A stretch of DNA of 64,000 nucleotides from a plasmid: the NCBI RefSeq assembly GCF_055900595.2, contig NZ_JBVWEU010000002.1; one strand, given 5' to 3'. The number at the start of each line of letters is the position of its first letter. Position 1 is the stretch's first letter. Position numbers and translations under genes: made by a program. Positions 5,293-23,336 of this stretch are shown piece after piece. Under the pieces are notes generated by a model, which did no database searches, had not been told where the DNA came from, and saw nothing but the letters and a program-made list of their open reading frames with translations.

Positions 5293-5493
5293 ACCACACA
5301 CGTTAATTCATTTATATCTAATCGGGGTTGTACGCCGGAAACGCCGAAATTTCCGATACAGCGAATTTGTTGATTTTTGAAGCATGTTTGGAAGGTTTTG
5401 ACGTGTACGTTTATGGTGCAGTAAGTGAGAATTTATTCGTACCAGCCATATGATACGTTACGGGCAGTGATTTTTCGCGCTAGACAGCTATTT

Positions 5494-5746: not shown

Positions 5747-5969
5747 GAAACCTGGATTTTTCCGCGACCAGTAACGGCGTGGGTTGTCACATAAACGACC
5801 GATTGAGTGACTGTCACTGAAACAACGATTTCTGCATCAGATTTCGTCACATAACCCGTCACCTATTCAACGTCATGCAAATCTGTCAATTACTGGCTTT
5901 GGTTACGGAATTTTCTAGGTTTTCGGCTTAGAACCCCAAATAGTCTTAACGTGGTTTATTTTCCGAATT

Positions 5970-6248
5970 TCAAGCGCCCCCCTGGATGAGCGTGATGATT
6001 ACTGGCGGACCTTTGACGTTCCAGCAAATTCCCCTGTTCCACATAGGTTTCCAGATATGACCGGTTATTTTCACGTTCGGTGTACGTGTTACAGCTGCAT
6101 TATCAATATCATCAGGGATAAAATTGTAAGATCGTGGAAAATGTTTATTCATAGCCCGGATGATGGCTGTCTGTGCATCCTTTGTTCGGGCGCGGTGTTT
6201 CCATTCACGCCAGCCATCCACCTCAGAAATAATAACAGTAATCATCAA
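5970..6248 (-). CDS. hypothetical protein
   Basis: 92-aa ORF immediately downstream of and co-oriented with the 233-aa ORF; no family recognised. Confidence 0.35.
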   Translation of the reverse strand: MMITVIISEVDGWREWKHRARTKDAQTAIIRAMNKHFPRSYNFIPDDIDNAAVTRTPNVKITGHIWKPMWNRGICWNVKGPPVIITLIQGGA

Positions 6249-6302
6249 AACCTCGTGTCGTTACTCAATTTTGATTCCATAGCGGGACAGCATTTCACAT
6301 AA

Positions 6303-7004
6303 TTATGCCCCGTTATGAATGCAGGCGTCCTTCAAATTGCTGTCCGGTGTGACAGTTTTCGATGGTTGGTTGCAACGAGCATCTTCTGTCTCTTTCATCC
6401 TGGCGTTATAACGCTGCGTGTGTTTTTCAAGTTTTGCCTGCGCATACAGCGCTTCTTCCTCCGTTACAGTTCCATGAACTTTGCCATCCAGACCATAACG
6501 CGGAGTACCTGCGACTGATATACGCTGCAGATATTTGTAACCGCCAGTAATCATCCTTACAGCACAATTCCATTCTTTTACAGTTAGTCCACACTCAGGA
6601 CTGGCCGAAATAAAAGCCATGACATCCTTTGAGATGCCTATTTTAAATGCATGATATCCCCCCTCTTCAGCCCGTAACTGAGGGAATGTTTTTTTAACAC
6701 AGTCCAGACTGTGTCGGATAAACTCATGATTCCATCTATTGTTCTTCTTTTTTTTCTTCTTCTTACGTCCTGTTTTTTTCTGTTGTTCCGGGGAACCGGC
6801 CACTGTGGCTGGTATTTCAGGAGGTAATGAGTCGGTTTTAAATTCCATTACTGGCGCTGGTTTTATATCATCAGGAACTGCCTGTACAGCATCATCCTGA
6901 TGAGAAAGAATTCGTCTTTTTTTCTTAATAATAACAACAGGTGACGGTTTCTTTGTAACACTGCCCATATACACACCTCTGCGTATCGTTAATATATAAT
7001 GCAC
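6303..7004 (-). CDS. hypothetical protein with internal poly-lysine tract
   Basis: 233-aa ORF (alternative start MGSV at 6968); KKTGRKKKKKKKNNRW tract encoded by AAG/AAA repeats including an A8 run (T8 on the plus strand at 6748-6755). Confidence 0.4.
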   Translation of the reverse strand: MHYILTIRRGVYMGSVTKKPSPVVIIKKKRRILSHQDDAVQAVPDDIKPAPVMEFKTDSLPPEIPATVAGSPEQQKKTGRKKKKKKKNNRWNHEFIRHSLDCVKKTFPQLRAEEGGYHAFKIGISKDVMAFISASPECGLTVKEWNCAVRMITGGYKYLQRISVAGTPRYGLDGKVHGTVTEEEALYAQAKLEKHTQRYNARMKETEDARCNQPSKTVTPDSNLKDACIHNGA

Positions 7005-7070
7005 GACATACAGATAGTATATATCTGAGTCGGTAAAGTCACCAACAGAAGAATAATAACATGTATTTCA

Positions 7071-7349
7071 TTACTGTTCGCGAATTATCACTCTGGATTC
7101 CTTCCTGGTGACATAAGTACAGTTATCAGGTACATCTTCCATAATAAAAGACATTGCCCCGATTTTAACATTACTTCCGATTTTCACATTTAACCCAATA
7201 ATACATGTATGGGCACCAATATCGACATTATCACCAATAACAATATAGTTTTCCCTACTGTCAGAAACCTTTTCACCAATGGTTGTATTCTGCCGTATAA
7301 TGACATTCTCACCGATATCAACATTACCATGAATGACGATTCCTGCATG
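7071..7349 (-). pseudogene. hexapeptide-repeat acetyltransferase (CysE/WcaB-like), C-terminal half
   Basis: reverse translation HAGIVIHGNVDIGENVIIRQNTTIGE...RVIIREQ* with no start codon; abuts the IS1 end at 7350. Confidence 0.6.
7341..7349. repeat. 9-bp target-site duplication tcctgcatg (left copy)
   Basis: identical 9-mer directly abuts the outward-facing IS1 ends at 7350 and 22357. Confidence 0.7.
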
Positions 7350-7630
7350 GGTAATGACTCCAACTTATTGATAGTGTTTTATGTTCAGATAATGCCCGAT
7401 GACTTTGTCATGCAGCTCCACCGATTTTGAGAACGACAGCGACTTCCGTCCCAGCCGTGCCAGGTGCTGCCTCAGGTTCAGGTTATGCCGCTCAATTCGC
7501 TGCGTATATCGCTTGCTGATTACGTGCAGCTTTCCCTTCAGGCGGGATTCATACAGCGGCCAGCCATCCGTCATCCATATCACCACGTCAAAGGGTGACA
7601 GCAGGCTCATAAGACGCCCCAGCGTCGCCA
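7350..7630 (-). mobile_element. IS1, about 280-bp fragment from the IRR end (inverted orientation)
   Basis: GGTAATGACTCCAACTTATTGATAGTG at 7350; encodes the C-terminal 88 aa of InsB on the minus strand, identical to the copy at 22079-22342; similarity ends at about 7630. Confidence 0.85.
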
Positions 7631-7639
7631 CGGAAAGAA

Positions 7640-8486
<847 letters not shown>

Positions 8487-9095
8487 TAATTACACTGTGG
8501 GTTGACGCCGGAAGAATCAGAGAACAGATACCGTTCTTACTGTAAAACGTGGCTAATATTAATTGAGCACTGCAGTGTTCAGAGCACAAAGAAGAAAAAA
8601 GATGTGTGCGAATGCCTGTAATGTGTTAAAAGAATGTTCCGCGTTTCCGGTACGCTTTTCGTAACTAACAATGCAGGGTGACGTAACGCTGGTTGTGCCG
8701 GAAACGCGTCCCTCCCCCTATCTTTCCTGTTTGGATTTGCCCCTATATTTCTGGATTATCCGACAAAACCGGCGTGAAGTATTACTCTCGTCGCCCAGCA
8801 CCATAAGGATAACGCCCATAAAATCATGAAACTTTTCTTCCAGATTGGATACAATCAGGCCGAAACGGTGATGAATATTATCCAAATCTGATGGTTCGTA
8901 GCGTTTTCAGCCCCCAGATTCTGAGTTGCCTGTAGGGATGATTTCAATTCCCGATTTGTCTATCGCATAGAGAAAAAGAATTTCATTTCTGTTCACCAGA
9001 ACCCATGTAACCCACTCCAATTCGTTATTTATCTCACTGATTGCCCTTCATTTATCTCATTGATGCACCGAAAGGTAAAACTGCCATCCGGTGCA

Positions 9096-10025
9096 TCACG
9101 CTCGATGCATCAAATCCTGATAAATCCCCGTCAGTATTCCTTGTAAGCTAAATTCTCTTTTTATCCACTGAGTGACTTGACCGCTTGCCGAATGCCTGGT
9201 TGCCAACAGCATTCGTGAATCCTGACGTGGGTTGTGGATCTGCCGTGTCACCAGCAATGACTTTTCCATCGCTTCACGCACCATATAGTCTGGCAGAAAA
9301 CCGATTCCCTCCCCCAAGATCTGGCACTGAAGCTTAGTATTAAAGTCGGGAACCAGAATCGACTCTTGCCCGTGTAACAGCCAGCCGACTTTTTTGTTTA
9401 TAGTGTTTGCAGTGTCTTCCACCATGATGTTCGGGTACAGACGTAACTGACTCTCAGAAATGGGCTCAGGAATAAACGCCAGCGGATGAGCCGGAGAAAT
9501 CGCGAACAACCAACGAATCATGCCGATTTCAATGTAATCAATTCCACCACCGTCCAGTAACGTATCGGGCGCGCCAATGGCGATATCAGCCTGGTTATTA
9601 ATGAGTGAATCCCAGACGCCATTATACACCTCTGTAGTAATAGCTATCTGGCAGGTTGGAAAGTGTTCCCTGAGCACTTGCAGAAGCCGAGCTGTATGCT
9701 GAGGGGTATACAACAGTTGATTAATACAAATGCGCACCCGGGATTTAATTCCCTGAGCGATGGCATCAACTCTACGTATGATGGAGTGGTAATCGTTGAG
9801 CAGGTCAGTTGCTTTGCAAAAAAGGTAGTGCCCGGGCTCGGTCAGCTCAATGCTACGGGTAGTTCGGGTAAAAAGCACCACGTCAAGCCCCATTTCCATA
9901 CGCTTGATAGTGTAACTAATTGCCGATGTGGTTAAGCCCAGTTCCTTCGCCGCCTTGCTGAAACTTCTATAGCGGGCAGCCATAGTAAATGCCAGTAAGT
10001 TTTCTTCCGTAAATATTGAATTCAT
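9096..10025 (-). CDS. LysR-family transcriptional regulator (YahB-like)
   Basis: HTH motif FSKAAKELGLTTSAISYTIKRMEMGLDVVLF; start placed at the internal ATG (MNSIFTEENLL) rather than the 352-aa extended ORF. Confidence 0.8.
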   Translation of the reverse strand: MNSIFTEENLLAFTMAARYRSFSKAAKELGLTTSAISYTIKRMEMGLDVVLFTRTTRSIELTEPGHYLFCKATDLLNDYHSIIRRVDAIAQGIKSRVRICINQLLYTPQHTARLLQVLREHFPTCQIAITTEVYNGVWDSLINNQADIAIGAPDTLLDGGGIDYIEIGMIRWLFAISPAHPLAFIPEPISESQLRLYPNIMVEDTANTINKKVGWLLHGQESILVPDFNTKLQCQILGEGIGFLPDYMVREAMEKSLLVTRQIHNPRQDSRMLLATRHSASGQVTQWIKREFSLQGILTGIYQDLMHRA

Positions 10026-10412
10026 CTTTCTTTCCTCTGGCGACAATACACATACACAACATGATGATTGTTGAATGTATTTGTAATTCTTATAACCGAC
10101 AATCAGTTTTGAAAAAACTAACACCGTATTTACATTTAATTTGAAGGAAATCACACATCTGAATTTTAATTACAGGCAGCTATCCGTGCTGCAGACCACC
10201 TTTATTTATATGACTGCGGATTAATGGCTAAAATATCCCCAGCTATAATAGAAATATTGCACTATATCACACTCTCTTATTATTGTTAATTTTGTTTCAA
10301 TAATTCATGGTCTAATGATGAGTAAATTTTAAATGGATGGTGCTCTATGCATTCTGTTGCTATTCTTGGCTTGTTATATTTGTAAAATCTTAAAAAGAGC
10401 AGGAGATCGATT

Positions 10413-11018
10413 ATGTCCAATAAAGAACTCATTACAGAATTTCTGCTGGCGGCAGAACAAGGTAATTCCGATGGATTAAAATCATGCCTTGATAAAAAGG
10501 TTGATATTAATGCGACTAACCGCGAGGGGCGTACTGCAATTATTATTGCCAGTCTGAATAAACATTATGACTGCGTTTCTTTATTGATTTCCGCAGGTGC
10601 TGATATTAATAAACAAGATCAAACTTGTTTTAATCCCTTCCTGATTGGCTGCCTGAATAATGATTTAACACTGTTGCGTACGGTATTACCGGCTAACCCC
10701 GACCTTAATTGCCTAACCCGTTTTGGCGGTGTTGGTATTACACCTGCCTGCGAAAAAGGCCATGTCGAGATTGTACGTGAATTGCTGATGCGTACTGATA
10801 TCAATGTCAACCATACTAATTTTGTTGGCTGGACGCCGCTCCTAGAGGCCATCGTGCTGAATGACGGCGGTGAAAAGCAGCAGGAGATCGTCAAACTGTT
10901 GCTTGAGCATGGCGCAAACCCGCACATGACGGATAAATACGGTAAAACCCCGCTGGAGCTGGCGCGAGAAAAAGGCTACCACAAAATTGCCGAGTTGCTG
11001 ATTTCGGCTGGAGCCTGA
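10413..11018 (+). CDS. ankyrin-repeat protein (YahD-like)
   Basis: 201 aa with repeated ankyrin motifs (GRTAIIIASLNKHYDCVSLLISAGADIN; GWTPLLEAIV...LLLEHGANPH; GKTPLELAREKGYHKIAELLISAGA). Confidence 0.8.
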   Translation: MSNKELITEFLLAAEQGNSDGLKSCLDKKVDINATNREGRTAIIIASLNKHYDCVSLLISAGADINKQDQTCFNPFLIGCLNNDLTLLRTVLPANPDLNCLTRFGGVGITPACEKGHVEIVRELLMRTDINVNHTNFVGWTPLLEAIVLNDGGEKQQEIVKLLLEHGANPHMTDKYGKTPLELAREKGYHKIAELLISAGA

Positions 11019-11103
11019 CAACAGGAGCACGATTATCGCTATATTATCACGGCAATCTTTTCGGGCACTAACCGCAGACTGCGCGTTTCTCACTTTTCGG
11101 GGA

Positions 11104-11952
11104 ATGGGCCAGGTTGAACAGGTTTTTTCCCATGCGGTAAATCTGTTAATACCTGAACAGCAGCGACTGCTGACGTTACTGAGTGAGGATTGTGATAACG
11201 CACCTAACAGTTGTCGTTTAGCACTGACACATTATGAAGACCTTTTTCACCCCGGTGAACAGGTCAATTTTAGCGGGTCTGGAATAACTGTTGGAAATGA
11301 TAAATGGATAGAAATAACCGGTTGTCAGATGTGGCGAATACCACGGTGGACATCTGATTCAGCAAGCCTTGCCAAAGTCGGCTGGCAGCATTGGGAAGAG
11401 TTTATCCGCCAACAACTAAGAAGCAACGACACATTATTTCTGTACCAGGGTGACAATCCATTTTATCAGGAAATTTCTCGCCAATTACTCAACCGCCGAA
11501 AAAATTTGCTGAAGGCGTTGTGTACAGGAGAAAACATCACTGCGGCAGTCAACCAGTTAATTGGTCTTGGAATAGGGCTGACGCCATCATCGGATGATTA
11601 TTTAGTAGGTTTAAGCACTATTTTATTTATTCAAGGACATCCACTAAGGAAGTATAGATACGATTTCTTAGCAGCATTACAACTTGCAGGAAATAACATA
11701 ACGCTTCTCAGCAAAATAACGTTAGAGGAAGCATTTAATCAGCGTTATCGGGAAAGAGTCGGACGGCTACTGAACCAATTTATTACTGAGCCACAACCCA
11801 TTTCTACGCAATATGTTACTGACATAAAAAATATAGGCTCAAGTTCTGGATGCGACATGCTGTATGGCATGGCGGATGCCTGCGCCCTGAGCCACAGGTC
11901 CGGAGGTAATTATGTCAATCAGGATAGTTGTAAAAAAAAACACGTATTTTGA
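11104..11952 (+). CDS. YlbF/YahE-family protein (DUF2877-like)
   Basis: 282-aa ORF overlapping the downstream FdrA-family gene by 41 nt; position and size match yahE in the E. coli yah cluster as recalled. Confidence 0.6.
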   Translation: MGQVEQVFSHAVNLLIPEQQRLLTLLSEDCDNAPNSCRLALTHYEDLFHPGEQVNFSGSGITVGNDKWIEITGCQMWRIPRWTSDSASLAKVGWQHWEEFIRQQLRSNDTLFLYQGDNPFYQEISRQLLNRRKNLLKALCTGENITAAVNQLIGLGIGLTPSSDDYLVGLSTILFIQGHPLRKYRYDFLAALQLAGNNITLLSKITLEEAFNQRYRERVGRLLNQFITEPQPISTQYVTDIKNIGSSSGCDMLYGMADACALSHRSGGNYVNQDSCKKKHVF

Positions 11953-13459
11953 TTCTGTTTCACTGATGTCTATCTCCACGCGCGCAAATAAGCTTGATGG
12001 AGTTGAGCAGGCATTTGTTGCTATGGCGACAGAGATGAATAAGGGGGTGCTGAAGAATCTCGGTCTGCTGACCCCTGAGCTGGAAGAGGCGAAAAGTGGC
12101 GATCTGATGATTGTCATTAAAGGTACCAGCGAGGAGGCGAACGAGCGGACGCTAATAGCGATTGATGAGCTGTTTGCGCATAAAGAACAGGGAGGCCAGC
12201 ACGAAGCACGCTATGCCACGATTGCCAGTGCGAAGAAGCATGCTCCAGAGAGTAATCTGGCGGTGATCTCTGTCAATGGCCTGTTTGCTGCTCGTGAAGC
12301 TCGTCAGGCACTACAAAATAACCTCAATGTTATGCTGTTTTCTGACAACGTCTCTCTTGAGGACGAGCTGGAACTCAAGCATCTGGCACATGAAAAAGGG
12401 TTGTTGATGATGGGGCCTGATTGTGGAACCGCCATCATTAACGGCGCAGCGTTGTGTTTTGGCAATGCAGTGCGTCGCGGCAACATCGGAATCATTGGTG
12501 CCTCCGGTACGGGTAGCCAGGAGCTGAGCGTACGCATTCACGAATTTGGCGGCGGGATTTCCCAGCTGATTGGGACAGGTGGACGCGATATGAGTGAAAA
12601 AATTGGCGGCCTGATGATGCTTGACGCGATTAGCATGCTGGAGGCCGATCCACAAACTGAGATCATTACGCTTATATCCAAACCTCCTGCACCAGCGGTA
12701 GCCCGTAAGGTGCTGGAACGTGCGCGCACCTGTCACAAGCCTGTGGTGGTGTGTTTCCTCGGACGTGAGTCCACCCCTGCGGATGAAGAAGGCCTACAGT
12801 TTGCCCGCGGTACTAAAGAGGCTGCCTTGAAAGCGGTACTGTTGACTGGTGTGAAAAAAGAGAGTCTGGATTTGCATCCGCTCAACTGGCAGCTGATTGA
12901 AGAGGTTCGCTCCCGTCTGACTCCACAACAAAAGTATATCCGTGGCCTGTTCTGTGGTGGCACGTTATGCGATGAAGCGATGTTTACTGCCATGGAAAAA
13001 CTCTCGGATGTGTATAGCAATATTCACCCGAATCCGGCGTTCCGCCTTACAGATCTCAACCGTAGCGTGGCGCATACCTTCCTCGATTTCGGCGATGATT
13101 ATTTTACCAACGGCAAACCACATCCGATGATCGATCCCACCAATCGCATTACCCGGCTCTTGCAGGAAGCACAGGATCCTGAAGTTGGCGTGATCGTGAT
13201 GGACTTCATTCTTGGATTTGGATCACATGAAGATCCGGTTGGAGTGATGCTGGATACAATTGTTGAAGCCAAAGAAATTGCTGCCGCAGACGGTCGCCCG
13301 CTTGAGATCCTCGGCTATGTGCTGGGAACCGACCTTGATACACCGTCGCTGAAAAAACAGTGTCAGATGTTGACCGATGCCGGGGTTATTTGGGCAAGCA
13401 GTAGCACCAACACCGGATTACTGGCACGTGAATTTATATTTAAAGGGGAGGAAGGCTGA
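11912..13459 (+). CDS. FdrA-family protein (YahF-like)
   Basis: 515 aa with CoA-ligase-like glycine-rich motifs (MMGPDCGTAIINGA, GNIGIIGASGTGSQE); length equals E. coli YahF as recalled. Confidence 0.75.
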   Translation: MSIRIVVKKNTYFDSVSLMSISTRANKLDGVEQAFVAMATEMNKGVLKNLGLLTPELEEAKSGDLMIVIKGTSEEANERTLIAIDELFAHKEQGGQHEARYATIASAKKHAPESNLAVISVNGLFAAREARQALQNNLNVMLFSDNVSLEDELELKHLAHEKGLLMMGPDCGTAIINGAALCFGNAVRRGNIGIIGASGTGSQELSVRIHEFGGGISQLIGTGGRDMSEKIGGLMMLDAISMLEADPQTEIITLISKPPAPAVARKVLERARTCHKPVVVCFLGRESTPADEEGLQFARGTKEAALKAVLLTGVKKESLDLHPLNWQLIEEVRSRLTPQQKYIRGLFCGGTLCDEAMFTAMEKLSDVYSNIHPNPAFRLTDLNRSVAHTFLDFGDDYFTNGKPHPMIDPTNRITRLLQEAQDPEVGVIVMDFILGFGSHEDPVGVMLDTIVEAKEIAAADGRPLEILGYVLGTDLDTPSLKKQCQMLTDAGVIWASSSTNTGLLAREFIFKGEEG

Positions 13460-14877
13460 TGAGCCAGACACTGTTTAATCAGCCGCTGAACGTTATTAAT
13501 GTCGGTATCGAAATGTTCAGCGATGACATGAAAAAGCAGAATGTACCGGTAACCCAACTTGACTGGACACCGCCAGGCCAAGGAAACATACAAGTGGTAA
13601 CGGCACTGGACGACATTGCCGCTTCACCACTGGCAGACAAAATTGCAGCTGCTAATCAGCTGGCGCTGGAACGCATTATCCAGTCGCATCCTGTGCTAAT
13701 TGGCTATGATCAGGCGATCAACGTCGTGCCGGGTATGACCCGTAACACTATCCTTCACGCCGGGCCGCCAATCCACTGGGAAAAAATGTGCGGCGCAATG
13801 AAGGGCGCAGTAACCGGGGCTCTGGTATTTGAAGGACTGGCGAAAGATCTGGATGATGCCGCCGAACTAGCTGCTTCAGGTGAAATCATCTTCTCTCCGT
13901 GCCACGAACATGACTGTGTCGGCTCAATGGCGGGTGTCACGTCTGCATCGATGTTTATGCACATCGTCGAGAACAAAACCTATGGAAACCGCGCATATAC
14001 CAATATGAGCGAGCAGATGGCAAAGATCCTGCGTATGGGCGCTAACGACCAGAGCGTTATAGAGCGTCTTAACTGGATGCGAGATGTACTGGGACCTATG
14101 TTGCGCGATGCTATGAAGCTGGCGGGCGAAATCGATCTGCACTTGATGTTAGCGCAGGCGCTGCATATGGGCGATGAGTGCCATAACCGCAACAACGCCG
14201 GGACGGCGCTGCTGATTCAGACGCTGACGCCGTGGATTATTCAGACTGGCTACCCTGTTGAGCAGCAGCGTGAGGTGTTCGAGTTTGTCCTCAGTAGTGA
14301 TTACTTCTCAGGACCAACATGGATGGCAATGTGTAAAGCCGCAATGGACGCTGCGCACGGCATTGAATACAGCACCGTGGTGACAACGATGGCACGCAAT
14401 GGTGTTGAGTTCGGTCTTCGTATTAGCGGTTTGCCGGGCCAGTGGTTTACCGGTCCGGCGCAGCAGGTGATTGGGCCGATGTTTGCGGGCTATAAGCTAG
14501 AGGATTCCGGACGTGATATCGGTGATAGTGCAATTACCGAAACCTACGGCGTTGGCGGTTTCGCTATGGCGACGGCACCAGCTATTGTGTCACTGGTGGG
14601 CGGAACAGTTGAGGAAGCTATTGATTTCTCACGTAAAATGAGAGAAATCACTCTCGGAGAAAACCCCAACGTCACCATTCCCCTGCTTGGTTTTATGGGC
14701 GTACCGACCGCTATCGATATTACACGTGTAGGCAGTACAGGCATTCTGCCGGTAATTAACACAGCCATTGCGCACAAAGACGCAGGGATCGGCATGATCG
14801 GCGCAGGAATTGTTCACCCGCCGTTCACTTGTTTTGAAAAGGCGATCCTCAACTGGCGTGACCACTACTGCCAATAA
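13459..14877 (+). CDS. YlbE/YahG-family protein (DUF1116-like)
   Basis: 472 aa; start codon overlaps the upstream stop (ATGA); length equals E. coli YahG as recalled. Confidence 0.7.
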   Translation: MSQTLFNQPLNVINVGIEMFSDDMKKQNVPVTQLDWTPPGQGNIQVVTALDDIAASPLADKIAAANQLALERIIQSHPVLIGYDQAINVVPGMTRNTILHAGPPIHWEKMCGAMKGAVTGALVFEGLAKDLDDAAELAASGEIIFSPCHEHDCVGSMAGVTSASMFMHIVENKTYGNRAYTNMSEQMAKILRMGANDQSVIERLNWMRDVLGPMLRDAMKLAGEIDLHLMLAQALHMGDECHNRNNAGTALLIQTLTPWIIQTGYPVEQQREVFEFVLSSDYFSGPTWMAMCKAAMDAAHGIEYSTVVTTMARNGVEFGLRISGLPGQWFTGPAQQVIGPMFAGYKLEDSGRDIGDSAITETYGVGGFAMATAPAIVSLVGGTVEEAIDFSRKMREITLGENPNVTIPLLGFMGVPTAIDITRVGSTGILPVINTAIAHKDAGIGMIGAGIVHPPFTCFEKAILNWRDHYCQ

Positions 14878-14989
14878 CAATAACCGGGGCTAACGCAGTT
14901 AGCCCCACAGTAGCGGAAAACGTTGTTTACCTTCAGGGCTGGGCGATCTCCATGATCGCAAACGATGCTTAACCTGTTAAGGAGATTCC

Positions 14990-16540
14990 ATGAACAGCAT
15001 AAAACTAGAATGGAAACGTGGTGACTGGGCGGCTTACTTTGGACTGATGACCAACAATCTGACTAACCTGCTGACAATGATGGGTCTGCTAATTTTTGTC
15101 GTCGGAATCCCTACTGAAATTGTCTATGGACGCATTGCGCCTGCCTTTGGTCTTGCAGTGCTGGCGGCCAGTGTCTGCTACTCCTGGTTTGGTCTACAGA
15201 TGGTGAAGAAAACCGGTCGTAGCGATGTAACGGCGCTGCCGTCTGGACCGAGCGCACCCTCAATCTTTACCGTGACATTCCTGGTGCTGATGCCGGTTTA
15301 TCAGCAAACCAAAGATGCCAACTTTGCTATTCAGATAGGATTGGTGTGGTGCTTTGTCGAAGCGTTGATCCTGGTCGGTGGCTCCTTCCTGGGTGAGACT
15401 ATCCGCAAGATGATCCCGCGTACAGTGCTGCTTTCTTGTCTGTCCGGACTGGGGTTATTACTGCTGGCAATGAACCCGATGCTGCAAGCGTTCGAAGCGC
15501 CGACAGTTTCTTTCATCGTCCTGTTATTGATCTTCATTAACTGGTTCGGTAAGAAGCCGATTTTTCCCCATATTCCTACCGGTTTGCTGTTGCTGATTGC
15601 TGGTACGTCCCTAGCGTGGATATCCGGTTTACAAAGCCCGGAAGACATTAAAGCGTCGATGTCTTCCTTCGGCTTCAACCCGCCGGAAATTCATGTAAGG
15701 AGCTTCCTGCAAGGTTTGCCGCACGCTCTGCCATATCTGGCTTCTGCAGTTCCTTTGGGCCTGGCTAACTACATTTTTGACCTCGAGAACATTGAAAGTG
15801 CGCACGCGGCTGGTGATGAATACAACACCCGTAAGGTCATGATGGCGAACGGCTTTGCCTCCATGCTCGGTTGCATGCTGGGTAATCCGTTCCCGGTAAC
15901 CGTATATGTTGGGCATGCAGGCTGGAAAGCTATGGGCGCTAGTATCTGCTATACCCTCGCATCAGGCATCACTATGTTCCTGGTGCCATTGTTTGGGTTG
16001 GGCGCGTTTATGCTCGCCATTATTCCCATGACTGCTATAGTGCCAATTCTGGTTTTTATCGGTGTGGTAACCGCCAATCAGGTGGTGCGAGAAACTCCTA
16101 AAGTCGAGGTTCCCGTCATTTTCATCTGTCTGTTCCCATGGGTCGCCAACTGGGCATTGACCATCGTTAACAGCGTGATGGGCGCAGCCGGAACATCCGC
16201 TGAGAAACTTGGTAGCGACCTGTTGCACAGCAAAGGCGTCTATTACGATGGACTGATGCATCTGGGAAGCGGTGCACCGCTGGCCAGCATGCTGTGGGGA
16301 TGCATTGCTATCTTTGCCATTATGAATAAGCCGCTGCGCGGGGCGATAGCTGCATCCTTTGGAGCACTGTTATCGCTGTTTGGCGTGATTCACTCCCCAG
16401 CGGTTGGCTTTGCGGAAGGCAGCTCGATTGTGTTTGTTGTGGCCTACCTGATGATGCTTGCTATGTTTGCCCTCAAGCATGTTATTGATAGCCGTGAAAC
16501 AGTGGCTGCGTCTGAGCAGGAAGAGACTAAAACGACCTGA
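14990..16540 (+). CDS. polytopic membrane permease (possibly NCS2/AzgA-like)
   Basis: 516 aa with many hydrophobic segments; sits between yahG-like and carbamate kinase genes; family assignment tentative. Confidence 0.6.
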   Translation: MNSIKLEWKRGDWAAYFGLMTNNLTNLLTMMGLLIFVVGIPTEIVYGRIAPAFGLAVLAASVCYSWFGLQMVKKTGRSDVTALPSGPSAPSIFTVTFLVLMPVYQQTKDANFAIQIGLVWCFVEALILVGGSFLGETIRKMIPRTVLLSCLSGLGLLLLAMNPMLQAFEAPTVSFIVLLLIFINWFGKKPIFPHIPTGLLLLIAGTSLAWISGLQSPEDIKASMSSFGFNPPEIHVRSFLQGLPHALPYLASAVPLGLANYIFDLENIESAHAAGDEYNTRKVMMANGFASMLGCMLGNPFPVTVYVGHAGWKAMGASICYTLASGITMFLVPLFGLGAFMLAIIPMTAIVPILVFIGVVTANQVVRETPKVEVPVIFICLFPWVANWALTIVNSVMGAAGTSAEKLGSDLLHSKGVYYDGLMHLGSGAPLASMLWGCIAIFAIMNKPLRGAIAASFGALLSLFGVIHSPAVGFAEGSSIVFVVAYLMMLAMFALKHVIDSRETVAASEQEETKTT

Positions 16541-16566
16541 ATAGCCTGCAAACGGAAGATAATTCT

Positions 16567-17529
16567 ATGAAAGAACTTGTGGTCGTTGCCATTGGTGGCA
16601 ACAGCATTATCAAAGATAACGCCAGCCAGTCGATTGAGCATCAGGCGGAGGCGGTGAAGGCCGTCGCCGATACGGTTCTGGAAATGCTGGCTTCCGATTA
16701 CGACATTGTGCTGACCCACGGCAACGGGCCGCAGGTCGGTCTGGATTTACGCCGCGCGGAGATAGCCCACGAGCGCGAAGGGCTACCCTTAACGCCGCTG
16801 GCGAACTGTGTGGCGGATACGCAAGGCGGCATTGGCTATCTGATCCAGCAGGCGCTGAACAACCGGCTGGCGCCTCACGGCGAGAAAAAAGCCGTCACCG
16901 TGGTGACTCAGGTGGAAGTGGATAAAAACGATCCGGGGTTTGTCCATCCCACCAAGCCCATCGGTGCATTCTTTAGTGAAAACCAGCGTGATGAACTACA
17001 AAAGGCAAACCCTGACTGGCGTTTTGTTGAAGATGCCGGACGGGGCTATCGCCGCGTGGTCGCCTCGCCGGAACCGAAACGTATTGTCGAAGCACCTGCC
17101 ATTAAGACTCTGATCCAGCAAGGCTTTGTGGTGATTGGCGCGGGCGGCGGTGGCATTCCGGTGGTGCGTACTGACGCAGGGGATTACCAAAGCGTGGACG
17201 CGGTTATCGACAAAGATCTCTCTAGCGCGCTACTGGCTCGCGAAATTCACGCCGACATTCTGGTGATCACCACCGGCGTGGAAAAAGTGAGTATTCATTT
17301 TGGGAAACCCAACCAGCATGCACTGGATACAGTGGATGTCCTAACGATGGCCCGTTACATGCAGGAGGGTCACTTCCCGCCTGGGAGTATGTTACCGAAG
17401 ATTCTTGCCAGTCTGGAGTTCCTGGAACGTGGAGGTAAAAGAGTGATTATCACCACGCCTGAATGCCTGTCCGCGGCACTGCGTGGCGAAACAGGCACCC
17501 ATATTATCCACTCCCAAGAGGAGACGTAA
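16567..17529 (+). CDS. carbamate kinase (ArcC/YahI-like)
   Basis: 320 aa; N-terminal motif VVVAIGGNSI and HGNGPQVG typical of carbamate kinase. Confidence 0.85.
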   Translation: MKELVVVAIGGNSIIKDNASQSIEHQAEAVKAVADTVLEMLASDYDIVLTHGNGPQVGLDLRRAEIAHEREGLPLTPLANCVADTQGGIGYLIQQALNNRLAPHGEKKAVTVVTQVEVDKNDPGFVHPTKPIGAFFSENQRDELQKANPDWRFVEDAGRGYRRVVASPEPKRIVEAPAIKTLIQQGFVVIGAGGGGIPVVRTDAGDYQSVDAVIDKDLSSALLAREIHADILVITTGVEKVSIHFGKPNQHALDTVDVLTMARYMQEGHFPPGSMLPKILASLEFLERGGKRVIITTPECLSAALRGETGTHIIHSQEET

Positions 17530-18316
17530 ATTAAGGAAAGCGACCGCCGCCGTGAATTTTTAATGTTCATTGCAGATTATCGTGGGCTGGAAATGATAAC
17601 GGTTGGGGAGTTATTGTTTAGTTGCTAAAACAGAACGATAACCAACCCCAACCGTTCTCAATTTCGAATACTATCTTTTCCATTTATCTCTGGATAGGCT
17701 TTGACGTCGTCCCTACTGAGTAAAATCCCCCTCATCATCCACCTAAAACCGATTGAAAACGGTCATTACTCTTGTGGCAAACAGGCTAAAGCCGTTCACG
17801 ATGCTTCACTTCGCACCTTATCGTAATGAACAATACTGGTATTTCCAGTTCAGTTACGCCTACCCGTCTACCGCATTCTTTGCCCTAACTACGGCATAGT
17901 TCGGGATTATATCAGCTGGCTAAAGCCTTATGCTCATCAGACCACATGACTCATTGAGCATGTTGAGGCGTTACTCAAAATCTTGCCGATTAAACATATT
18001 TCGTAATTTCTTACCCTGCACTAGCATATCATCAATACTATCGACAAACGTCAGTTGCAAATAGAGGTCACAGGGTCTGATTGATGTACTGCCAAGGCCG
18101 GGTCATGAAAGAGTTTGCCCTGTTCAAAGCTCATCGTTACGCACCGTCGTAGCCGATGCGGATACTCATCAATCCTCTGGATAGGTGAGGTGCGTAGTAG
18201 AGAAGCTCGGTCGTTTTTCGTTAATCTGAATCAGTACTGTCAACATATTCAAGTCGTTAATATGGATATGAATACCTCCTTTGACCTAGAGGTACAGATG
18301 CACTACCCCCCAAGCT

Positions 18317-18338
18317 GTCAACGACGGATGAAAAGTGG
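18317..18338 (+). repeat. orphan 22-bp copy of the IS100 left terminal repeat
   Basis: tgtcaacgacggatgaaaagtg is identical to the first 22 bp of the IS100 copy at 20039; flanking sequence is unrelated. Confidence 0.45.
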
Positions 18339-18626
18339 CTCTTCCGCAACCTGGATGGAGATTTTCATGCCAGTGGACTCATGACCCTCTGCCTGAGTAG
18401 TTCAAATCCGGCTCGACCATACATCTGGCCTTTCAGCATTTTTAGCCAATTTACATGACTTTCGACACCCCCCATTATTCCAGCGACTGCTGATTGCCTC
18501 ACATATAGCCGCAGCATCAGCTGCCATCCTTGCAGCCACGCGCCGAAGTTACCACTTTCTCGTTGCTCTTTTAACCACTCCCTCCATGGGTCCAGAAGTC
18601 CTCACTCTGGAGGCCGGGTTGACATT

Positions 18627-19439
18627 TCAGGGAATGTTCCTGAACACACCCAGAGACTGTCTGTCACACGTGATAAGCCTGTAATACGGGATAAGCCTGT
18701 AATACGGGATATTTCCCCTGAACCCACATCCCTTGTTATGTAGTGCCATAACCTCTGTCCAACGCTGATGCCGTTTTTGGCGGGTTTGCTGTTTAAGGCG
18801 TTCCGGACGACGGAGCGATGCTACAGGCACAGACAGTACTGGCTTAGGTGATTTCTTTGGTGACAACCCACTGGCAACAAGACGTATCAGAGGCATCTGT
18901 CTGTACATCATTCGTTCAGGCGCATCGCCAATATTTTTTAGCCGGTGCCATCGAGCTGCTATCTGTCTGGCCTGAGGTGCACCTTCACGTGATGCTGTCG
19001 CATAGACTCCGCCACGGTCACATGAGACAACCTGTATTTCCGGATATTTTCTGAACCAGGTCGCCAGCGTACTCTGCTCGCAACCGGGAAGCAGGACGAG
19101 GGGACGGTGAGTATAAAGATTGACGATTAACGTACCGTAATGGTAGCCCCGATGCCACGCCCACTCATCAATACCGACATGAGGCGCGCCTGACTGTTTC
19201 GTCTCCGGGGTATTAATAACCCTGCGAAGAAGAGTATCAGCACTGCAACGGAGCCCCACTGCCGTTGCTGCCTGTTTCCCGGCCTCACCTCCGGCTATTA
19301 ATCCCAGTTGATGTTGTAAATTTTGTAACACCTGTGAAGAATGCTGGGAGTGAACCGGCGAAGGGGGCAAGCGACCCGGCAAAAATTTTACGTGAACAAG
19401 CCGGGTTACGGCAGTACCAGTGGCGGACGGAAAATACAA
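18627..19439 (-). pseudogene. ISL3-family transposase, truncated/frameshifted
   Basis: motifs HVGIDEWAWHRGYHYGTLIVNL, DRGGVYA and ARWHRLKN; N-terminal region out of frame and cut by IS1 at 19631; contains an 18-bp tandem duplication at 18672-18707. Confidence 0.6.
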
Positions 19440-19685
19440 GCCATAGCGTCTGCCCTGAGCAGGGTAGATGCTGTATCCGGCGCCGACGATAACTATGAAC
19501 AGAGTCGCTACGCTTAAAGCATTCAGGACTTGTGCTGTTTTGCGTTTTCCGTGGAGATGGAGGGTTATACCGTCAGAGCTAATAATTTGTCGACTGCATC
19601 TCCATCCGCAAGGTAACTGTAGAAGTGTCTGGTGATGCTGCCAACTTACTGATTTAGTGTATGATGGTGTTTTTGAGGTGCTCCA

Positions 19686-21992
<2,307 letters not shown>

Positions 21993-22342
21993 CTAAATCG
22001 CGCCAGCGCTGGCTGTTTTACGCGTATGACAGTCTCCGGAAGACGGTTGTTGCGCACGTATTCGGTGAACGCACTATGGCGACGCTGGGGCGTCTTATGA
22101 GCCTGCTGTCACCCTTTGACGTGGTGATATGGATGACGGATGGCTGGCCGCTGTATGAATCCCGCCTGAAGGGAAAGCTGCACGTAATCAGCAAGCGATA
22201 TACGCAGCGAATTGAGCGGCATAACCTGAATCTGAGGCAGCACCTGGCACGGCTGGGACGGAAGTCGCTGTCGTTTTCAAAATCGGTGGAGCTGCATGAC
22301 AAAGTCATCGGGCATTATCTGAACATAAAACACTATCAATAA
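21993..22342 (+). pseudogene. insB: IS1 InsB, C-terminal part (split by IS100)
   Basis: resumes in frame with [15 protein letters not shown]... immediately after the IS100 right end. Confidence 0.85.
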
Positions 22343-22357
22343 GTTGGAGTCATTACC

Positions 22358-22366
22358 TCCTGCATG
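22358..22366. repeat. 9-bp target-site duplication tcctgcatg (right copy)
   Basis: immediately follows the IS1 IRR end at 22357; identical to 7341-7349. Confidence 0.7.
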
Positions 22367-23317: not shown

Positions 23318-23336
23318 AACGTACCTTTGAGACTGT

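What the first reader, a model, noticed from the sequence alone, without database searches (positions are those of the whole stretch)
9096..17529. Carbamate-kinase / FdrA-YlbE-YlbF-family catabolic cluster carried as plasmid cargo
The cargo between the IS1 copies is a compact unit: divergent LysR regulator, ankyrin-repeat protein, three overlapping genes of the FdrA/YlbE/YlbF type, a 516-aa permease and a carbamate kinase. In E. coli the paralogous fdrA-ylbE-ylbF set beside carbamate kinase has, as I recall, been linked to oxamate transcarbamylase in anaerobic allantoin breakdown, so this looks like a carbamoyl-phosphate-yielding pathway for an unknown imported substrate. Its native flanks are replaced by IS debris on both sides. 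An ankyrin-repeat protein in the operon is unusual.
Basis: partly seen in the sequence, partly recalled or inferred. Interest (0 to 1): 0.65.

Follow-up and report, generated by a model that had tools for sequence, protein, structure and literature searches.

The report
Plasmid-borne yah-type carbamoyl-phosphate catabolic module
An IS1 transposon has moved a complete seven-gene module from a Citrobacter-like chromosome onto conjugative E. coli plasmids common in poultry; the module most likely imports a urea-derivative and splits it into carbamoyl phosphate to make ATP and ammonia, but its substrate is still unknown.

Summary
Window 9096-17529 holds a divergent LysR regulator, a 201-aa ankyrin protein, AllH-, AllF(FdrA)- and AllG(YlbE)-family genes, a 516-aa membrane protein and a carbamate kinase. 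All are intact. The window continues into an IncFII/F-transfer backbone.

It is not E. coli's own yah locus. It is a "permease-type" yah module, 88% identical in DNA to Citrobacter portucalensis, and it is cut 11 codons into the downstream deaminase gene yahJ. It sits inside a 15-kb IS1-bounded unit with a 9-bp target duplication (TCCTGCATG). At least 60 related plasmids carry the uninterrupted target gene.

The module, ankyrin gene included, is conserved from Enterobacterales to Bacillales (YahG 77%, permease 71% identity). The permease belongs to no Pfam or NCBIfam family and has the 7+7-helix UraA/SLC26 fold. In 75 complete loci it never co-occurs with YahC.

AllFGH was shown in 2024 to be oxamic transcarbamylase. 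By analogy, the module should phosphorolyse an imported ureide to carbamoyl phosphate, which the kinase converts to ATP. No experiment addresses the yah paralogue or the plasmid copy. This is a new variant of a known kind, of moderate interest.

The parts
7341..7349 (.). Left copy of the 9-bp target-site duplication TCCTGCATG
   Evidence: Read directly. The same 9-mer occurs at 22358-22366. Uninterrupted target genes in other plasmids carry a single copy.
7350..7630 (-). Left IS1, a 281-nt remnant whose outer end is IRR (ggtaatgactccaac). The rest was lost in a 625-bp deletion relative to p135-3 and pR2-2.
   Evidence: Inverted repeat with 22077-22357, 99%. Alignment to L011 and L001. Sequence.
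7780..8410 (+). IS3-family transposase fragment: IS debris between the left IS1 and the cargo
   Evidence: RefSeq annotation of the identical plasmid pR2-2, transferred by offset. ORFs.
9052..17563 (+). Captured chromosomal segment, collinear with the Citrobacter freundii-complex yah locus
   Evidence: One blastn HSP of 8522 nt, 88.2% identical to C. portucalensis L015 5594-14110. Identity to six other Citrobacter freundii-complex loci is 82-86% (78% to Citrobacter sp. NCU1).
9096..10025 (-). LysR-type regulator (YahB-like), transcribed divergently from the operon
   Evidence: Best NCBIfam hits are AllS (268 bits) and PunR (230 bits), both below cut-off. 84% aa identity to E. coli YahB and 88% to Citrobacter. 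dN/dS 0.12.
10026..10412 (.). Divergent control region with motifs conserved from Providencia to Aeromonas. It includes the LysR-type palindrome ATTGTTaA-N7-TcAAtAAT at 10282-10304, a second ATTGTTGAA half-site at 10067-10086, and TTGCTATTCT at 10357-10366.
   Evidence: MAFFT alignment of nine intergenic regions. Coordinates. Binding was not tested.
10413..11018 (+). Ankyrin-repeat protein (YahD-like, 201 aa, no signal peptide), first gene of the operon
   Evidence: Ankyrin hits in NCBIfam and PDB. Present in 75 of 75 complete yah-type loci. 63% identical in Brevibacillus. dN/dS 0.09.
11104..11952 (+). YahE-like protein, AllH (DUF2877) family
   Evidence: Pfam PF11392, E 2e-22. It is the least conserved member: 52% identity to E. 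coli YahE and 27% to Brevibacillus. Undetectable in 23 of 75 loci.
11912..13459 (+). YahF-like protein, AllF/FdrA family (succinyl-CoA-synthetase-alpha-like fold without the catalytic histidine)
   Evidence: NCBIfam NF004760, 490 bits, above the 433 cut-off. PDB 3dmy FdrA, E 1e-83. 38% identity to K-12 AllF. The GHAGA loop is absent, and the motif GDDxFTxGKPHPMIDP is shared with AllF.
13459..14877 (+). YahG-like protein, AllG (DUF1116) family. Its N-terminal ~50 residues correspond to the C-terminus of AllF.
   Evidence: Pfam PF06545, E 6e-90. PDB 3clq, 643 bits. 46% identity to K-12 AllG. Residues 12-53 match AllF 513-554. dN/dS 0.03.
14885..14907 (+). GC-rich 9-bp-stem hairpin just after the yahG stop, in the 112-nt spacer before the permease gene
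   Evidence: spacer z-score -2.1. Function not tested.
14990..16540 (+). 516-aa membrane transporter of an uncatalogued family with the 7+7-helix UraA/SLC26 fold. It is the presumed importer, or substrate/product exchanger, of the module.
   Evidence: No Pfam or NCBIfam hit for it, or for any of 23 relatives. No PDB sequence hit. AF2 model pLDDT 79, pTM 0.76, with short strands in TM3 and TM10. Foldseek matches SVCT1, BicA, SLC26Dg, UraA, UapA and AZG at E 1e-7 to 1e-5 and 10-17% identity. It lay next to yahF/yahG in all 10 places inspected from 7 look-ups and in 62 of 75 complete loci.
16567..17529 (+). Carbamate kinase (YahI-like)
   Evidence: NCBIfam PRK12352, 629 bits against a cut-off of 266. 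The arcC equivalog model scores 346, just under its 358 cut-off. 93% identity to E. coli YahI, 38% to AllK.
17530..17563 (+). Remnant of yahJ (cytosine-deaminase-like amidohydrolase): the first 11 codons only, then the junction with IS debris
   Evidence: tblastn of YahJ residues 1-11. The end of collinearity with Citrobacter lies 34 nt into its yahJ. Sequence.
18365..19586 (-). Frameshifted ISL3-family transposase gene, preceded by a further transposase fragment at about 18102-18309: IS debris on the right of the cargo
   Evidence: pR2-2 annotation transferred by offset. ORF 18627-19439.
19631..22357 (+). Right IS1 (19631-20039 plus 21993-22357, inner end IRL, outer end IRR), interrupted by IS100 (about 20040-21992)
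   Evidence: blastn against L011 and L001. Sequences. istA/istB annotation.
22358..22366 (.). Right copy of the 9-bp target-site duplication TCCTGCATG. It is followed by the N-terminal half of the interrupted serine-acetyltransferase-like gene (to about 22678, minus strand). The C-terminal half lies left of 7350.
   Evidence: The joined flanks match intact genes over 734 of 734 nt at 99.3-99.6%.

Best explanation
The segment is a complete 'permease-type' yah module under LysR control.

**Origin (shown).** It came from a Citrobacter-like chromosome. It was inserted into an IncF plasmid as the cargo of a 15-kb IS1 composite transposon.

**Mechanism (inferred).**
1. The 516-aa 7+7-helix transporter takes up an extracellular ureide. 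This is an N-carbamoyl compound, probably an N-acyl-urea related to oxalurate.
2. A complex of YahE, YahF and YahG cleaves it with phosphate into carbamoyl phosphate plus the de-carbamoylated product. These are paralogues of the oxamic transcarbamylase subunits AllH, AllF and AllG. The ankyrin protein YahD probably acts as a fourth subunit or assembly factor.
3. The carbamate kinase transfers the phosphate to ADP. Each molecule of substrate therefore yields one ATP, one NH3 and one CO2.
4. The product may leave through the same transporter, as in the arginine and agmatine deiminase pathways.

**Accessory deaminase.** In the donor a cytosine-deaminase-like enzyme, YahJ, probably converts an amino or imino precursor into the ureide. 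The plasmid copy lost it. It should therefore use only the ureide itself, as the natural deaminase-less modules of Aeromonas and Janthinobacterium do.

**Substrate.** Its identity is not established. My split is about 0.5 for a ureide other than oxalurate, 0.2 for exogenous oxalurate, and the rest for the other rivals.
For: **Shown here**
- Family assignments of all enzymes.
- 38-46% identity to K-12 AllF, AllG and AllK.
- The shared motif GDDxFTxGKPHPMIDP.
- All seven ORFs are intact, with dN/dS of 0.03-0.19 against Citrobacter.
- The same six-gene operon plus LysR, without any hydrolase, stands alone in Aeromonas and Janthinobacterium.
- The transporter has the UraA/SLC26 fold.
- The transporter was found beside yahF/yahG wherever it was looked up: Enterobacter, Brevibacillus, Aeromonas, Janthinobacterium, Pasteurella, Bosea and Avibacterium.
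- Accessory deaminases of two unrelated folds (Amidohydro_3 and CDA) sit at the same place in different phyla.
- The regulators are AllS-like LysR or PucR, the purine and ureide catabolism types.
- In Avibacterium, a yah-type and a second AllFG-type cluster share a single carbamate kinase.
- Mobilisation is supported by the 9-bp duplication, the empty sites and the Citrobacter collinearity.

**From the literature**
- AllF, AllG and AllH together convert oxalurate and phosphate to oxamate and carbamoyl phosphate.
- AllK is the coupled catabolic carbamate kinase (PMC11326118, PMC9843812).
Against: - No experiment exists for any yah gene or for the plasmid copy. E. coli yahC, yahE, yahG, yahH, yahI and yahJ are still listed among the uncharacterised y-ome genes (PMC11551758). 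YahB is still a candidate regulator only.
- In K-12, single allF, allG or allH mutants make no oxamate although yahDEFG-yahI is intact. Either yah is not induced under those conditions or it does not act on oxalurate.
- YahE is undetectable in 23 of 75 loci, whereas AllH is needed for full oxamic transcarbamylase activity. Subunit requirements therefore differ.
- The FdrA family lacks the succinyl-CoA-synthetase phosphohistidine, so the chemistry of carbamoyl-phosphate formation is not understood.
- The role proposed for the ankyrin protein rests on co-occurrence alone.
- Near-identity of all E. coli copies (at least 99%) shows recent spread, not selection for function on the plasmid.
Confidence: 0.65

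Rival explanations
1. It is a second oxamic transcarbamylase system. It has the same chemistry and the same substrate (oxalurate) as AllFGH-AllK, but is dedicated to scavenging external oxalurate, for example from oxidised uric acid or parabanate, through its own importer.
For: - Homology to AllFGH and AllK.
- The regulator's best model is AllS.
- In Brevibacillus the module includes an allantoin-permease-like NCS1 transporter and a PucR regulator.
- Streptococci are reported to induce oxamate transcarbamylase and a dedicated carbamate kinase on oxalurate or parabanate (references 78 and 79 cited in PMC6022934).
- Carriage is enriched in poultry isolates, whose excreta contain uric acid (the latter from my own knowledge): 18 of 30 sampled E. 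coli records and 12 of 19 plasmids with a stated host.
Against: - Identity to AllF and AllG is only 38-46%. AllH is not detectable by BLAST.
- E. coli and Citrobacter keep both systems side by side.
- K-12 allF, allG and allH mutants make no oxamate despite an intact yah operon.
- The accessory deaminases and the ankyrin subunit have no counterpart in the all system.
- The Enterococcus-like cluster holding PDB 3clq has neither ankyrin, nor this permease, nor an adjacent kinase. It therefore does not tie the yah type to the biochemically studied streptococcal pathway.
Confidence: 0.2
2. The module runs in the biosynthetic direction. The kinase makes carbamoyl phosphate from carbamate and ATP. 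YahDEFG carbamoylates an amide or amine. The membrane protein exports the product.
For: The AllFGH reaction is reversible and was assayed from oxamate plus carbamoyl phosphate. Carbamate-kinase-like enzymes can act anabolically in some organisms (PMC6022934).
Against: - AllFGH has a very high Km for oxamate, 36.9 mM.
- The regulators are catabolic types: AllS-like LysR and PucR.
- The module is linked to deaminases and to nucleobase or allantoin-type importers.
- No biosynthetic genes are nearby in any of the loci examined.
Confidence: 0.07
3. As annotated, YahF is an acyl-CoA synthetase and the cluster activates a carboxylic acid to its CoA ester. The carbamate kinase is incidental.
For: RefSeq names the gene 'acyl-CoA synthetase FdrA'. 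The CoA_binding and Ligase_CoA domains are detected. There is similarity to succinyl-CoA synthetase alpha, E 1e-17 to 1e-6.
Against: - The catalytic phosphohistidine loop (GHAGA in SucD) is replaced in YahF, AllF and the cluster-2 FdrA.
- No beta (ATP-grasp) subunit is encoded.
- AllF together with AllG and AllH has demonstrated transcarbamylase activity (PMC11326118).
- A carbamate kinase gene lies in or beside the module in the loci sampled across phyla, the Enterococcus-like L095 excepted.
Confidence: 0.03
4. The cluster is a passenger with no function on the plasmid. It was trapped between insertion sequences, crippled by loss of yahJ, and spread only because the plasmid lineage is successful.
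For: - yahJ is truncated to 11 codons.
- All E. coli copies are at least 99% identical, so there has been little time for selection or decay.
- The surrounding region is a patchwork of IS fragments.
Against: - All seven ORFs and the conserved control region are intact.
- Natural modules without the deaminase exist.
- The same plasmids also carry a second carbamoyl-phosphate-type cluster, and the two types are adjacent in Avibacterium. This suggests the combination is useful.
Confidence: 0.05

Closest known systems
Oxamic transcarbamylase AllF-AllG-AllH with carbamate kinase AllK of E. coli (allantoin regulon; Kim & Kim 2022, 2024)
   Same: Both have three adjacent genes of the FdrA, DUF1116 and DUF2877 families followed by a carbamate kinase. 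They share the motif GDDxFTxGKPHPMIDP and lack the succinyl-CoA-synthetase catalytic histidine. The predicted outcome is the same: carbamoyl phosphate, then ATP plus NH3 plus CO2.
   Different: - Identity is only 38% (F), 46% (G) and 38% (kinase). The H subunit is recognisable only by profile.
- Gene order is H-F-G rather than F-G-H.
- A ~50-residue segment sits on the N-terminus of YahG rather than the C-terminus of AllF.
- There is an extra, universally linked ankyrin protein.
- The module has its own transporter and its own LysR regulator.
- It is not embedded among allantoin genes.
- K-12 yah does not substitute for all mutants.
Chromosomal yahB-yahC-yahD-yahE-yahF-yahG-(yahH)-yahI-yahJ locus of E. 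coli K-12 (uncharacterised y-ome cluster)
   Same: The gene families and order match for regulator, ankyrin, E, F, G and kinase. Amino-acid identities are 84, 72, 52, 83, 90 and 93%.
   Different: - The plasmid copy has the 516-aa transporter where K-12 has the REP-filled yahH spacer.
- It lacks yahC (DUF1097) and keeps only 11 codons of yahJ.
- It groups with Citrobacter freundii-complex loci (YahG 96%), not with Escherichia.
- Across 75 loci the transporter and yahC are mutually exclusive.
Arginine deiminase and agmatine deiminase pathways (deiminase, catabolic transcarbamylase, carbamate kinase, antiporter)
   Same: The logic is the same. An optional deamination creates a ureido group, phosphorolysis gives carbamoyl phosphate, a carbamate kinase makes ATP, and a dedicated membrane carrier is present.
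   Different: The carbamoyl-transfer enzyme is not of the ATCase/OTCase fold. The deaminases are of cytosine-deaminase or CDA type, not the guanidino-modifying fold. The carrier is of the UraA/SLC26 fold. The substrate is unknown.
Second AllFGH-like cluster of the tkt1 island of APEC O1 / GR29 of BEN2908 (cysteine hydrolase, DUF2877, FdrA, DUF1116, ArcC, AH_C-like protein, NCS1 permease, LysR)
   Same: It has the same three enzyme families plus a carbamate kinase. It is carried on the same plasmids about 6.3 kb upstream, with its tail at window 1-2758. It is adjacent to a yah-type cluster in Avibacterium.
   Different: Identity is 34-48%. It has no ankyrin protein. It has an isochorismatase-type hydrolase and an allophanate-hydrolase C-terminal-like protein, and an NCS1 rather than a 7+7 transporter.
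IS1 composite transposons (e.g. Tn9, from my own knowledge)
   Same: Two IS1 copies bracket the cargo. There is a 9-bp target duplication, and uninterrupted target sites exist in related plasmids.
   Different: The IS1 copies are inverted with IRR outward. One is now truncated (in this window) and the other is split by IS100, so the unit is probably no longer mobile. The cargo is metabolic rather than resistance.

Membership tests
AllFGH-type carbamoyltransferase (oxamic transcarbamylase family) | Three adjacent genes of the AllF (HMA_AllF_N + CoA_binding + Ligase_CoA), AllG (PF06545) and AllH (PF11392) families | tested here: met
   Domain lists of orthologues.
AllFGH-type carbamoyltransferase (oxamic transcarbamylase family) | Adjacent catabolic carbamate kinase | tested here: met
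   PRK12352, 629 bits against a cut-off of 266. The kinase is linked in all complete loci.
AllFGH-type carbamoyltransferase (oxamic transcarbamylase family) | Orthology to E. coli AllF/G/H (same substrate expected) | tested here: not met
   Identity is 38-46% and AllH is not found by BLAST. E. coli carries both sets. K-12 all mutants are not rescued by yah.
AllFGH-type carbamoyltransferase (oxamic transcarbamylase family) | Enzymatic conversion of oxalurate plus phosphate to oxamate plus carbamoyl phosphate | not testable with these tools
   Needs purified YahD/E/F/G and an enzyme assay.
E. coli yah locus | Synteny yahB / yahD-E-F-G / yahI with high identity | tested here: met
   52-93% aa identity in the same order.
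E. coli yah locus | Presence of yahC and yahJ, and no gene between yahG and yahI | tested here: not met
   No yahC. yahJ is reduced to 11 codons. A 516-aa transporter lies between yahG and yahI.
IS1 composite transposon | Two IS1 copies bracketing the cargo | tested here: met
   The left copy is complete in pR2-2 and p135-3 and truncated here.
IS1 composite transposon | 9-bp direct target duplication at the outer ends, and existence of the empty site | tested here: met
   TCCTGCATG at 7341-7349 and 22358-22366. The joined flanks match intact genes over 734 of 734 nt in at least 60 plasmids.
NCS2/AzgA 'xanthine permease' (name given in some records) | Match to the family profile (Pfam PF00860 or an NCBIfam permease model) | tested here: not met
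   No Pfam hit even at E 10 for the protein or for any of 23 relatives. No NCBIfam hit. No PDB sequence hit with a profile.
NCS2/AzgA 'xanthine permease' (name given in some records) | 7+7 inverted-repeat transporter fold with short strands in TM3 and TM10 | tested here: met
   AF2 model, pLDDT 79. Foldseek probability is 1.0 to SVCT1, UraA, UapA and AZG, but equally to SLC26-type BicA, SLC26Dg and prestin. The superfamily is assigned; the family is not.
Succinyl-CoA-synthetase-like acyl-CoA synthetase (RefSeq name of FdrA) | Catalytic phosphohistidine loop (GHAGA) | tested here: not met
   Alignment with E. coli SucD shows the loop replaced in YahF, AllF and the cluster-2 FdrA.
LysR-type regulator AllS | Score above the curated equivalog cut-off | tested here: not met
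   268 bits against a cut-off of 372. It is AllS-like but not AllS.

The most novel reading that the evidence does not exclude
The yah-type module is a distinct, phylogenetically widespread ATP-yielding ureide fermentation and scavenging pathway whose substrate is not oxalurate.

- Its carbamoyltransferase needs a cytoplasmic ankyrin-repeat protein as a fourth subunit.
- Its 516-aa carrier founds a new transporter family within the UraA/SLC26 superfamily and works as a substrate/product exchanger.
- DUF1097 (YahC) is its functional replacement in Escherichia.

Carried together with the second AllFG-type cluster on poultry-associated IncF plasmids, it would give E. coli access to uric-acid-derived or related ureides in the bird gut.
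Probability: 0.25. Interest if true: 0.75.

Novelty: new variant of a known kind. Interest (0 to 1): 0.5.

Why it matters
The identification of AllFGH in 2024 closed a 60-year orphan enzyme. It also exposed a family of multi-subunit carbamoyltransferases with no resemblance to classical transcarbamylases. E. coli carries a paralogous set (yah) that is still in the uncharacterised y-ome.

The plasmid copy is the most tractable form of that set.
- It is a self-contained 8.5-kb unit with its own regulator and its own importer, which K-12 lacks. It can therefore be moved into a clean background and screened for gain of function on ureide panels.
- It points to three further unknowns that could be solved together. 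One is a metabolic role for a bacterial ankyrin protein. The second is a transporter family absent from Pfam and NCBIfam. The third is a candidate function for DUF1097 (YahC).
- It occurs in 141 of 5,426 complete E. coli genomes (2.6%), mostly on conjugative IncF plasmids from poultry. It is often accompanied by a second carbamoyl-phosphate-type cluster. This may matter for nitrogen and energy economy of avian E. coli.

None of this changes a major paradigm, hence the moderate score.

Tried and rejected
1. **Enterococcus lead.** PDB 3clq is 69% identical to YahG, and streptococci have a biochemically known oxalurate pathway. The contig encoding the 3clq sequence (L095) has PucR, AllH, AllF, AllG and an unrelated 393-aa membrane protein. 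It has no ankyrin gene, no adjacent kinase and no 516-aa carrier. It does not tie the yah type to oxalurate.
2. **Riboswitch as a ligand clue.** No Rfam family reached threshold upstream of the operon in the window or in six loci from five genera. The only match in the window region was a sub-threshold isrC hit at 7771-7853 in IS debris, and the matches in the loci were tRNAs and one rRNA.
3. **Remnants of yahC, yahJ or the carrier.** Nothing remains of yahC. Only 11 codons of yahJ remain on the plasmid. No trace of the carrier is left in the E. coli yahG-yahI spacer.
4. **Sequence-level classification of the carrier.** Pfam on the single protein and on 23 relatives, NCBIfam, and a PDB profile search all gave nothing. 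Only fold comparison worked.
5. **A single-IS1 intermediate.** NZ_CP141225.1 looked like one. Its IS1 lies about 50 bp away from the TCCTGCATG site and is an independent insertion.
6. **Literature.** I found no paper on the plasmid cluster, on YahB targets, or on any yah enzyme. The library does not cover most subscription journals.
7. **Promoter and terminator scans.** Consensus scans were at chance level. I relied on cross-genus conservation of the control region instead.

Full report
**1. What is in the sequence**

Between 9096 and 17529 the window carries seven intact genes.

| Coordinates | Strand | Product |
|---|---|---|
| 9096-10025 | - | LysR-type regulator, read divergently from the operon |
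| 10413-11018 | + | 201-aa ankyrin-repeat protein |
| 11104-11952 | + | 282-aa AllH/DUF2877 protein |
| 11912-13459 | + | 515-aa AllF/FdrA protein |
| 13459-14877 | + | 472-aa AllG/DUF1116 protein |
| 14990-16540 | + | 516-aa membrane protein |
| 16567-17529 | + | 320-aa carbamate kinase |

Profile searches confirm the families:
- Pfam AllH, E 2e-22.
- Pfam AllG, E 6e-90.
- NCBIfam FdrA subfamily, 490 bits against a cut-off of 433.
- Carbamate kinase PRK12352, 629 bits against a cut-off of 266.
- The regulator scores best against AllS (268 bits) and PunR (230 bits), both below cut-off.

The membrane protein matches nothing in Pfam, even at E 10, and nothing in NCBIfam.

**2. Plasmid context and how the cluster got there**

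The 8.4-kb stretch is 99.9-100% identical in about 70 PLSDB plasmids. Nearly all are conjugative IncF plasmids of E. coli, and five are from Klebsiella. It covers at least 80% of the query in 139 of 5,426 complete E. coli genomes.

Window 21220-63357 is collinear with the IncFII repA, hok, finO and F-type tra region of plasmid pR2-2.

The cargo lies between two inverted IS1 copies.
- The left copy survives here only as a 281-nt remnant (7350-7630). A 625-bp deletion relative to p135-3 and pR2-2 removed the rest.
- The right copy (19631-20039 plus 21993-22357) is split by IS100.
- Both outer ends are IRR. Each is abutted by the same 9-mer, TCCTGCATG, at 7341-7349 and 22358-22366.
- The flanks are the two halves of one serine-acetyltransferase-like gene.

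I joined the flanks with a single copy of the 9-mer. The join matches an uninterrupted gene as one piece, 734 of 734 nt at 99.3-99.6%, in at least 60 other IncF plasmids such as NC_011754.1. This is the signature of one IS1 composite-transposon insertion. An apparent single-IS1 intermediate (NZ_CP141225.1) proved to be an independent insertion about 50 bp away.

**3. Where the cargo came from**

A scan of 100,044 species genomes with YahG put the Citrobacter freundii complex on top, at 96% aa identity. Window 9052-17563 aligns as one block with C. portucalensis at 88.2% nt identity.

- The block ends 44 bp past the regulator's stop.
- On the other side it ends 34 nt into the next Citrobacter gene. 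That gene is the 460-aa cytosine-deaminase-like amidohydrolase YahJ.
- Only the first 11 codons of yahJ remain on the plasmid.
- Beyond both ends lie IS3-family, ISL3-family and other transposase fragments.

All seven genes show dN/dS of 0.03-0.19 against Citrobacter.

E. coli's own yah locus is a more distant relative, at about 82% nt over yahE-G and yahI. Amino-acid identities are 84, 72, 52, 83, 90 and 93%. It has no gene for the 516-aa protein. K-12 has instead the REP-filled yahH spacer (PMC11551758), with no detectable remnant.

The carrier gene occurs in only 141 of 5,426 E. coli genomes, always at 99% identity or more. It is on plasmids in 105 places and on chromosomes in 45. Eighteen of 30 evenly sampled records were from poultry. 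This may reflect the plasmid lineage rather than selection for the cluster.

**4. Anatomy of the module across bacteria**

Look-ups of the carrier's relatives always landed beside yahF/yahG-type genes. The organisms were Enterobacter, Brevibacillus, Aeromonas, Janthinobacterium, Pasteurella, Bosea and Avibacterium.

Conservation is striking. Against Brevibacillus the identities are YahG 77%, carrier 71%, YahF 67%, ankyrin 63%, kinase 57% and YahE 27%.

In 75 complete loci:
- The ankyrin gene is always present. In Bosea it forms the N-terminal half of a 410-aa protein.
- The carrier (62 loci) and the small membrane protein YahC/DUF1097 (13 loci: Escherichia, Kluyvera, Raoultella and others) never occur together. 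This suggests one replaces the other.
- YahE is undetectable in 23 loci, from the Enterobacter, Leclercia, Lelliottia and Silvania lineages and from Avibacterium (which has a distal AllH).

Aeromonas and Janthinobacterium carry exactly the plasmid's gene set with no deaminase. The truncated plasmid unit therefore corresponds to a naturally occurring minimal module.

Where a deaminase is present it is Amidohydro_3 (YahJ) in proteobacteria and a 152-aa CDA-fold enzyme in Brevibacillus. Brevibacillus also adds an allantoin-permease-like NCS1 transporter and a PucR regulator.

The control region keeps motifs conserved from Providencia to Aeromonas. They include the palindrome at 10282-10304.

**5. 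The individual proteins**

*The carrier.* A model built on 23 relatives has pLDDT 79 and pTM 0.76. It shows the short strands in TM3 and TM10 typical of the 7+7 inverted-repeat fold. Foldseek finds SVCT1, UraA, UapA and AZG (NCS2/AzgA type) and BicA, SLC26Dg and prestin (SulP type) about equally, at E 1e-7 to 1e-5 and 10-17% identity. Pfam recognises none of the 23 relatives, and a PDB profile search finds nothing. The label 'xanthine permease' in some records is therefore unsupported. The superfamily is clear, but neither the family nor the substrate class (nucleobase or anion) is.

*YahF.* It is 38% identical to AllF. Like AllF, it lacks the phosphohistidine loop of succinyl-CoA synthetase alpha, and it shares the motif GDDxFTxGKPHPMIDP. 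This argues against the name 'acyl-CoA synthetase'.

*YahG.* It is 46% identical to AllG. Its N-terminal ~50 residues correspond to the C-terminus of AllF. The same segment is a separate 77-aa ORF in an Enterococcus-like locus. Such a migrating segment hints that the F and G subunits contact each other.

**6. How it most likely works**

Kim and Kim showed two things about the all system. AllF, AllG and AllH together convert oxalurate and phosphate to oxamate and carbamoyl phosphate. AllK then makes ATP (PMC11326118, PMC9843812).

The yah module has the same three families plus a kinase, an importer, and no hydrolase in its minimal form. I infer the following steps.
1. It takes up a ready-made ureide.
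2. It phosphorolyses the ureide to carbamoyl phosphate.
3. It harvests one ATP and one ammonia per molecule.

Optional deaminases would feed amino or imino precursors into the pathway. This is formally like the arginine and agmatine deiminase pathways.

The family assignments, synteny and mobilisation are shown. The chemistry, the direction, the role of the ankyrin protein and the transport are inferred. I give the general mechanism a confidence of 0.65.

Oxalurate itself is a possible substrate (0.2). Evidence against it:
- Identity to the all proteins is low.
- Both systems coexist in E. coli and Citrobacter.
- The accessory genes are distinct.
- K-12 allF, allG and allH mutants produce no oxamate although yah is intact.

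A biosynthetic direction, a CoA-ligase function, and a functionless passenger are less likely. The reasons are given in the rival explanations.

**7. Comparison with what is known, and novelty**

The yah genes are annotated everywhere but remain uncharacterised. Most are listed in the 2024 y-ome survey. YahB is only a candidate regulator. I found no paper on the plasmid copy.

The finding is therefore not a new kind of system. It is a new variant of the AllFGH and carbamate kinase type, with a fourth conserved (ankyrin) component, an uncatalogued carrier, and a documented transfer from a Citrobacter-like chromosome to IncF plasmids by an IS1 composite.

Its main value is practical. It is a portable, self-sufficient version of an open y-ome problem.

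**8. Verdict**

Interest is 0.5.

Noticed in passing
window 1-2758 (full cluster in L013 15976-24154): This is the tail of a second, different AllFGH-like and carbamate kinase cluster. It comprises the arcC 3' end (1-138), an allophanate-hydrolase-C-terminal-like 129-aa protein (155-544), an NCS1 'cytosine' permease (570-1790) and a LysR gene (1868-2758). Upstream on sister plasmids lie a cysteine hydrolase, DUF2877, FdrA and DUF1116. It is the cluster of the tkt1 island of APEC O1 and GR29 of BEN2908. It is 34-48% identical to the yah-type proteins.
   Followed up: partly
L100 (Avibacterium paragallinarum) 4487-18721: A yah-type set (LysR, ankyrin, F, G, 506-aa carrier) is directly followed by a cluster-2-type set (LysR, isochorismatase, F, G, AH_C, NCS1). 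Only one AllH gene and one carbamate kinase gene serve both. This mirrors the co-carriage of the two clusters on the E. coli plasmids.
   Followed up: partly
75 complete yah-type loci (L002-L100): The 516-aa carrier (62 loci) and YahC/DUF1097 (13 loci) are mutually exclusive. This suggests DUF1097 is an alternative transporter for the same substrate.
   Followed up: partly
L003, L004, L037, L044 and related Enterobacter, Leclercia, Lelliottia and Silvania loci: The AllH-like gene yahE is missing; only about 107 bp separate the ankyrin gene from yahF. All other genes are intact. AllH is required for full oxamic transcarbamylase activity in E. coli.
   Followed up: partly
window 13459-13620 (YahG residues ~5-54); L012 12220-12348; L095 9751-9984: A ~50-residue segment is the N-terminus of YahG, the C-terminus of AllF, and a free-standing 77-aa ORF in the Enterococcus-like locus. 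It has moved across the F/G gene boundary.
   Followed up: partly
window 7631 (junction): A 625-bp deletion relative to p135-3 and pR2-2 removed most of the left IS1 and about 140 bp beyond it. This copy of the composite element can no longer transpose as a unit.
   Followed up: yes
window 20040-21992: IS100 (istA/istB) is inserted into the right IS1.
   Followed up: partly
L101 (NZ_CP141225.1) 3400-4167: An independent single IS1 insertion lies about 50 bp from the TCCTGCATG site, in the same serine-acetyltransferase-like gene of another plasmid (typed IncK2/Z, with an IncFII-family repA nearby). The gene seems to be an IS1 target hot spot.
   Followed up: yes
window 14885-14907: A GC-rich hairpin with a 9-bp stem lies immediately after the yahG stop, in the spacer before the carrier gene. 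It has no U-tract on the coding strand.
   Followed up: partly
L008 2635-2787 and L009 3602-3809: tRNA gene pairs lie directly beside the yah-type module in Aeromonas and Janthinobacterium. Together with 70-85% protein identity across phyla, this suggests the module travels horizontally.
   Followed up: no
L014 (E. coli strain 104 chromosome) 6791-20731: This is a chromosomal copy of the same cluster, with the same inner IS debris and the right IS1. The left flank is different (sodC, ABC transporter) and has no left IS1. It is one of 45 chromosomal places. How these arose was not worked out.
   Followed up: no
window 22680-25000: A RelE/Phd toxin-antitoxin pair and the IncFII repA-tap-copB replicon lie immediately to the right of the insertion site.
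   Followed up: no
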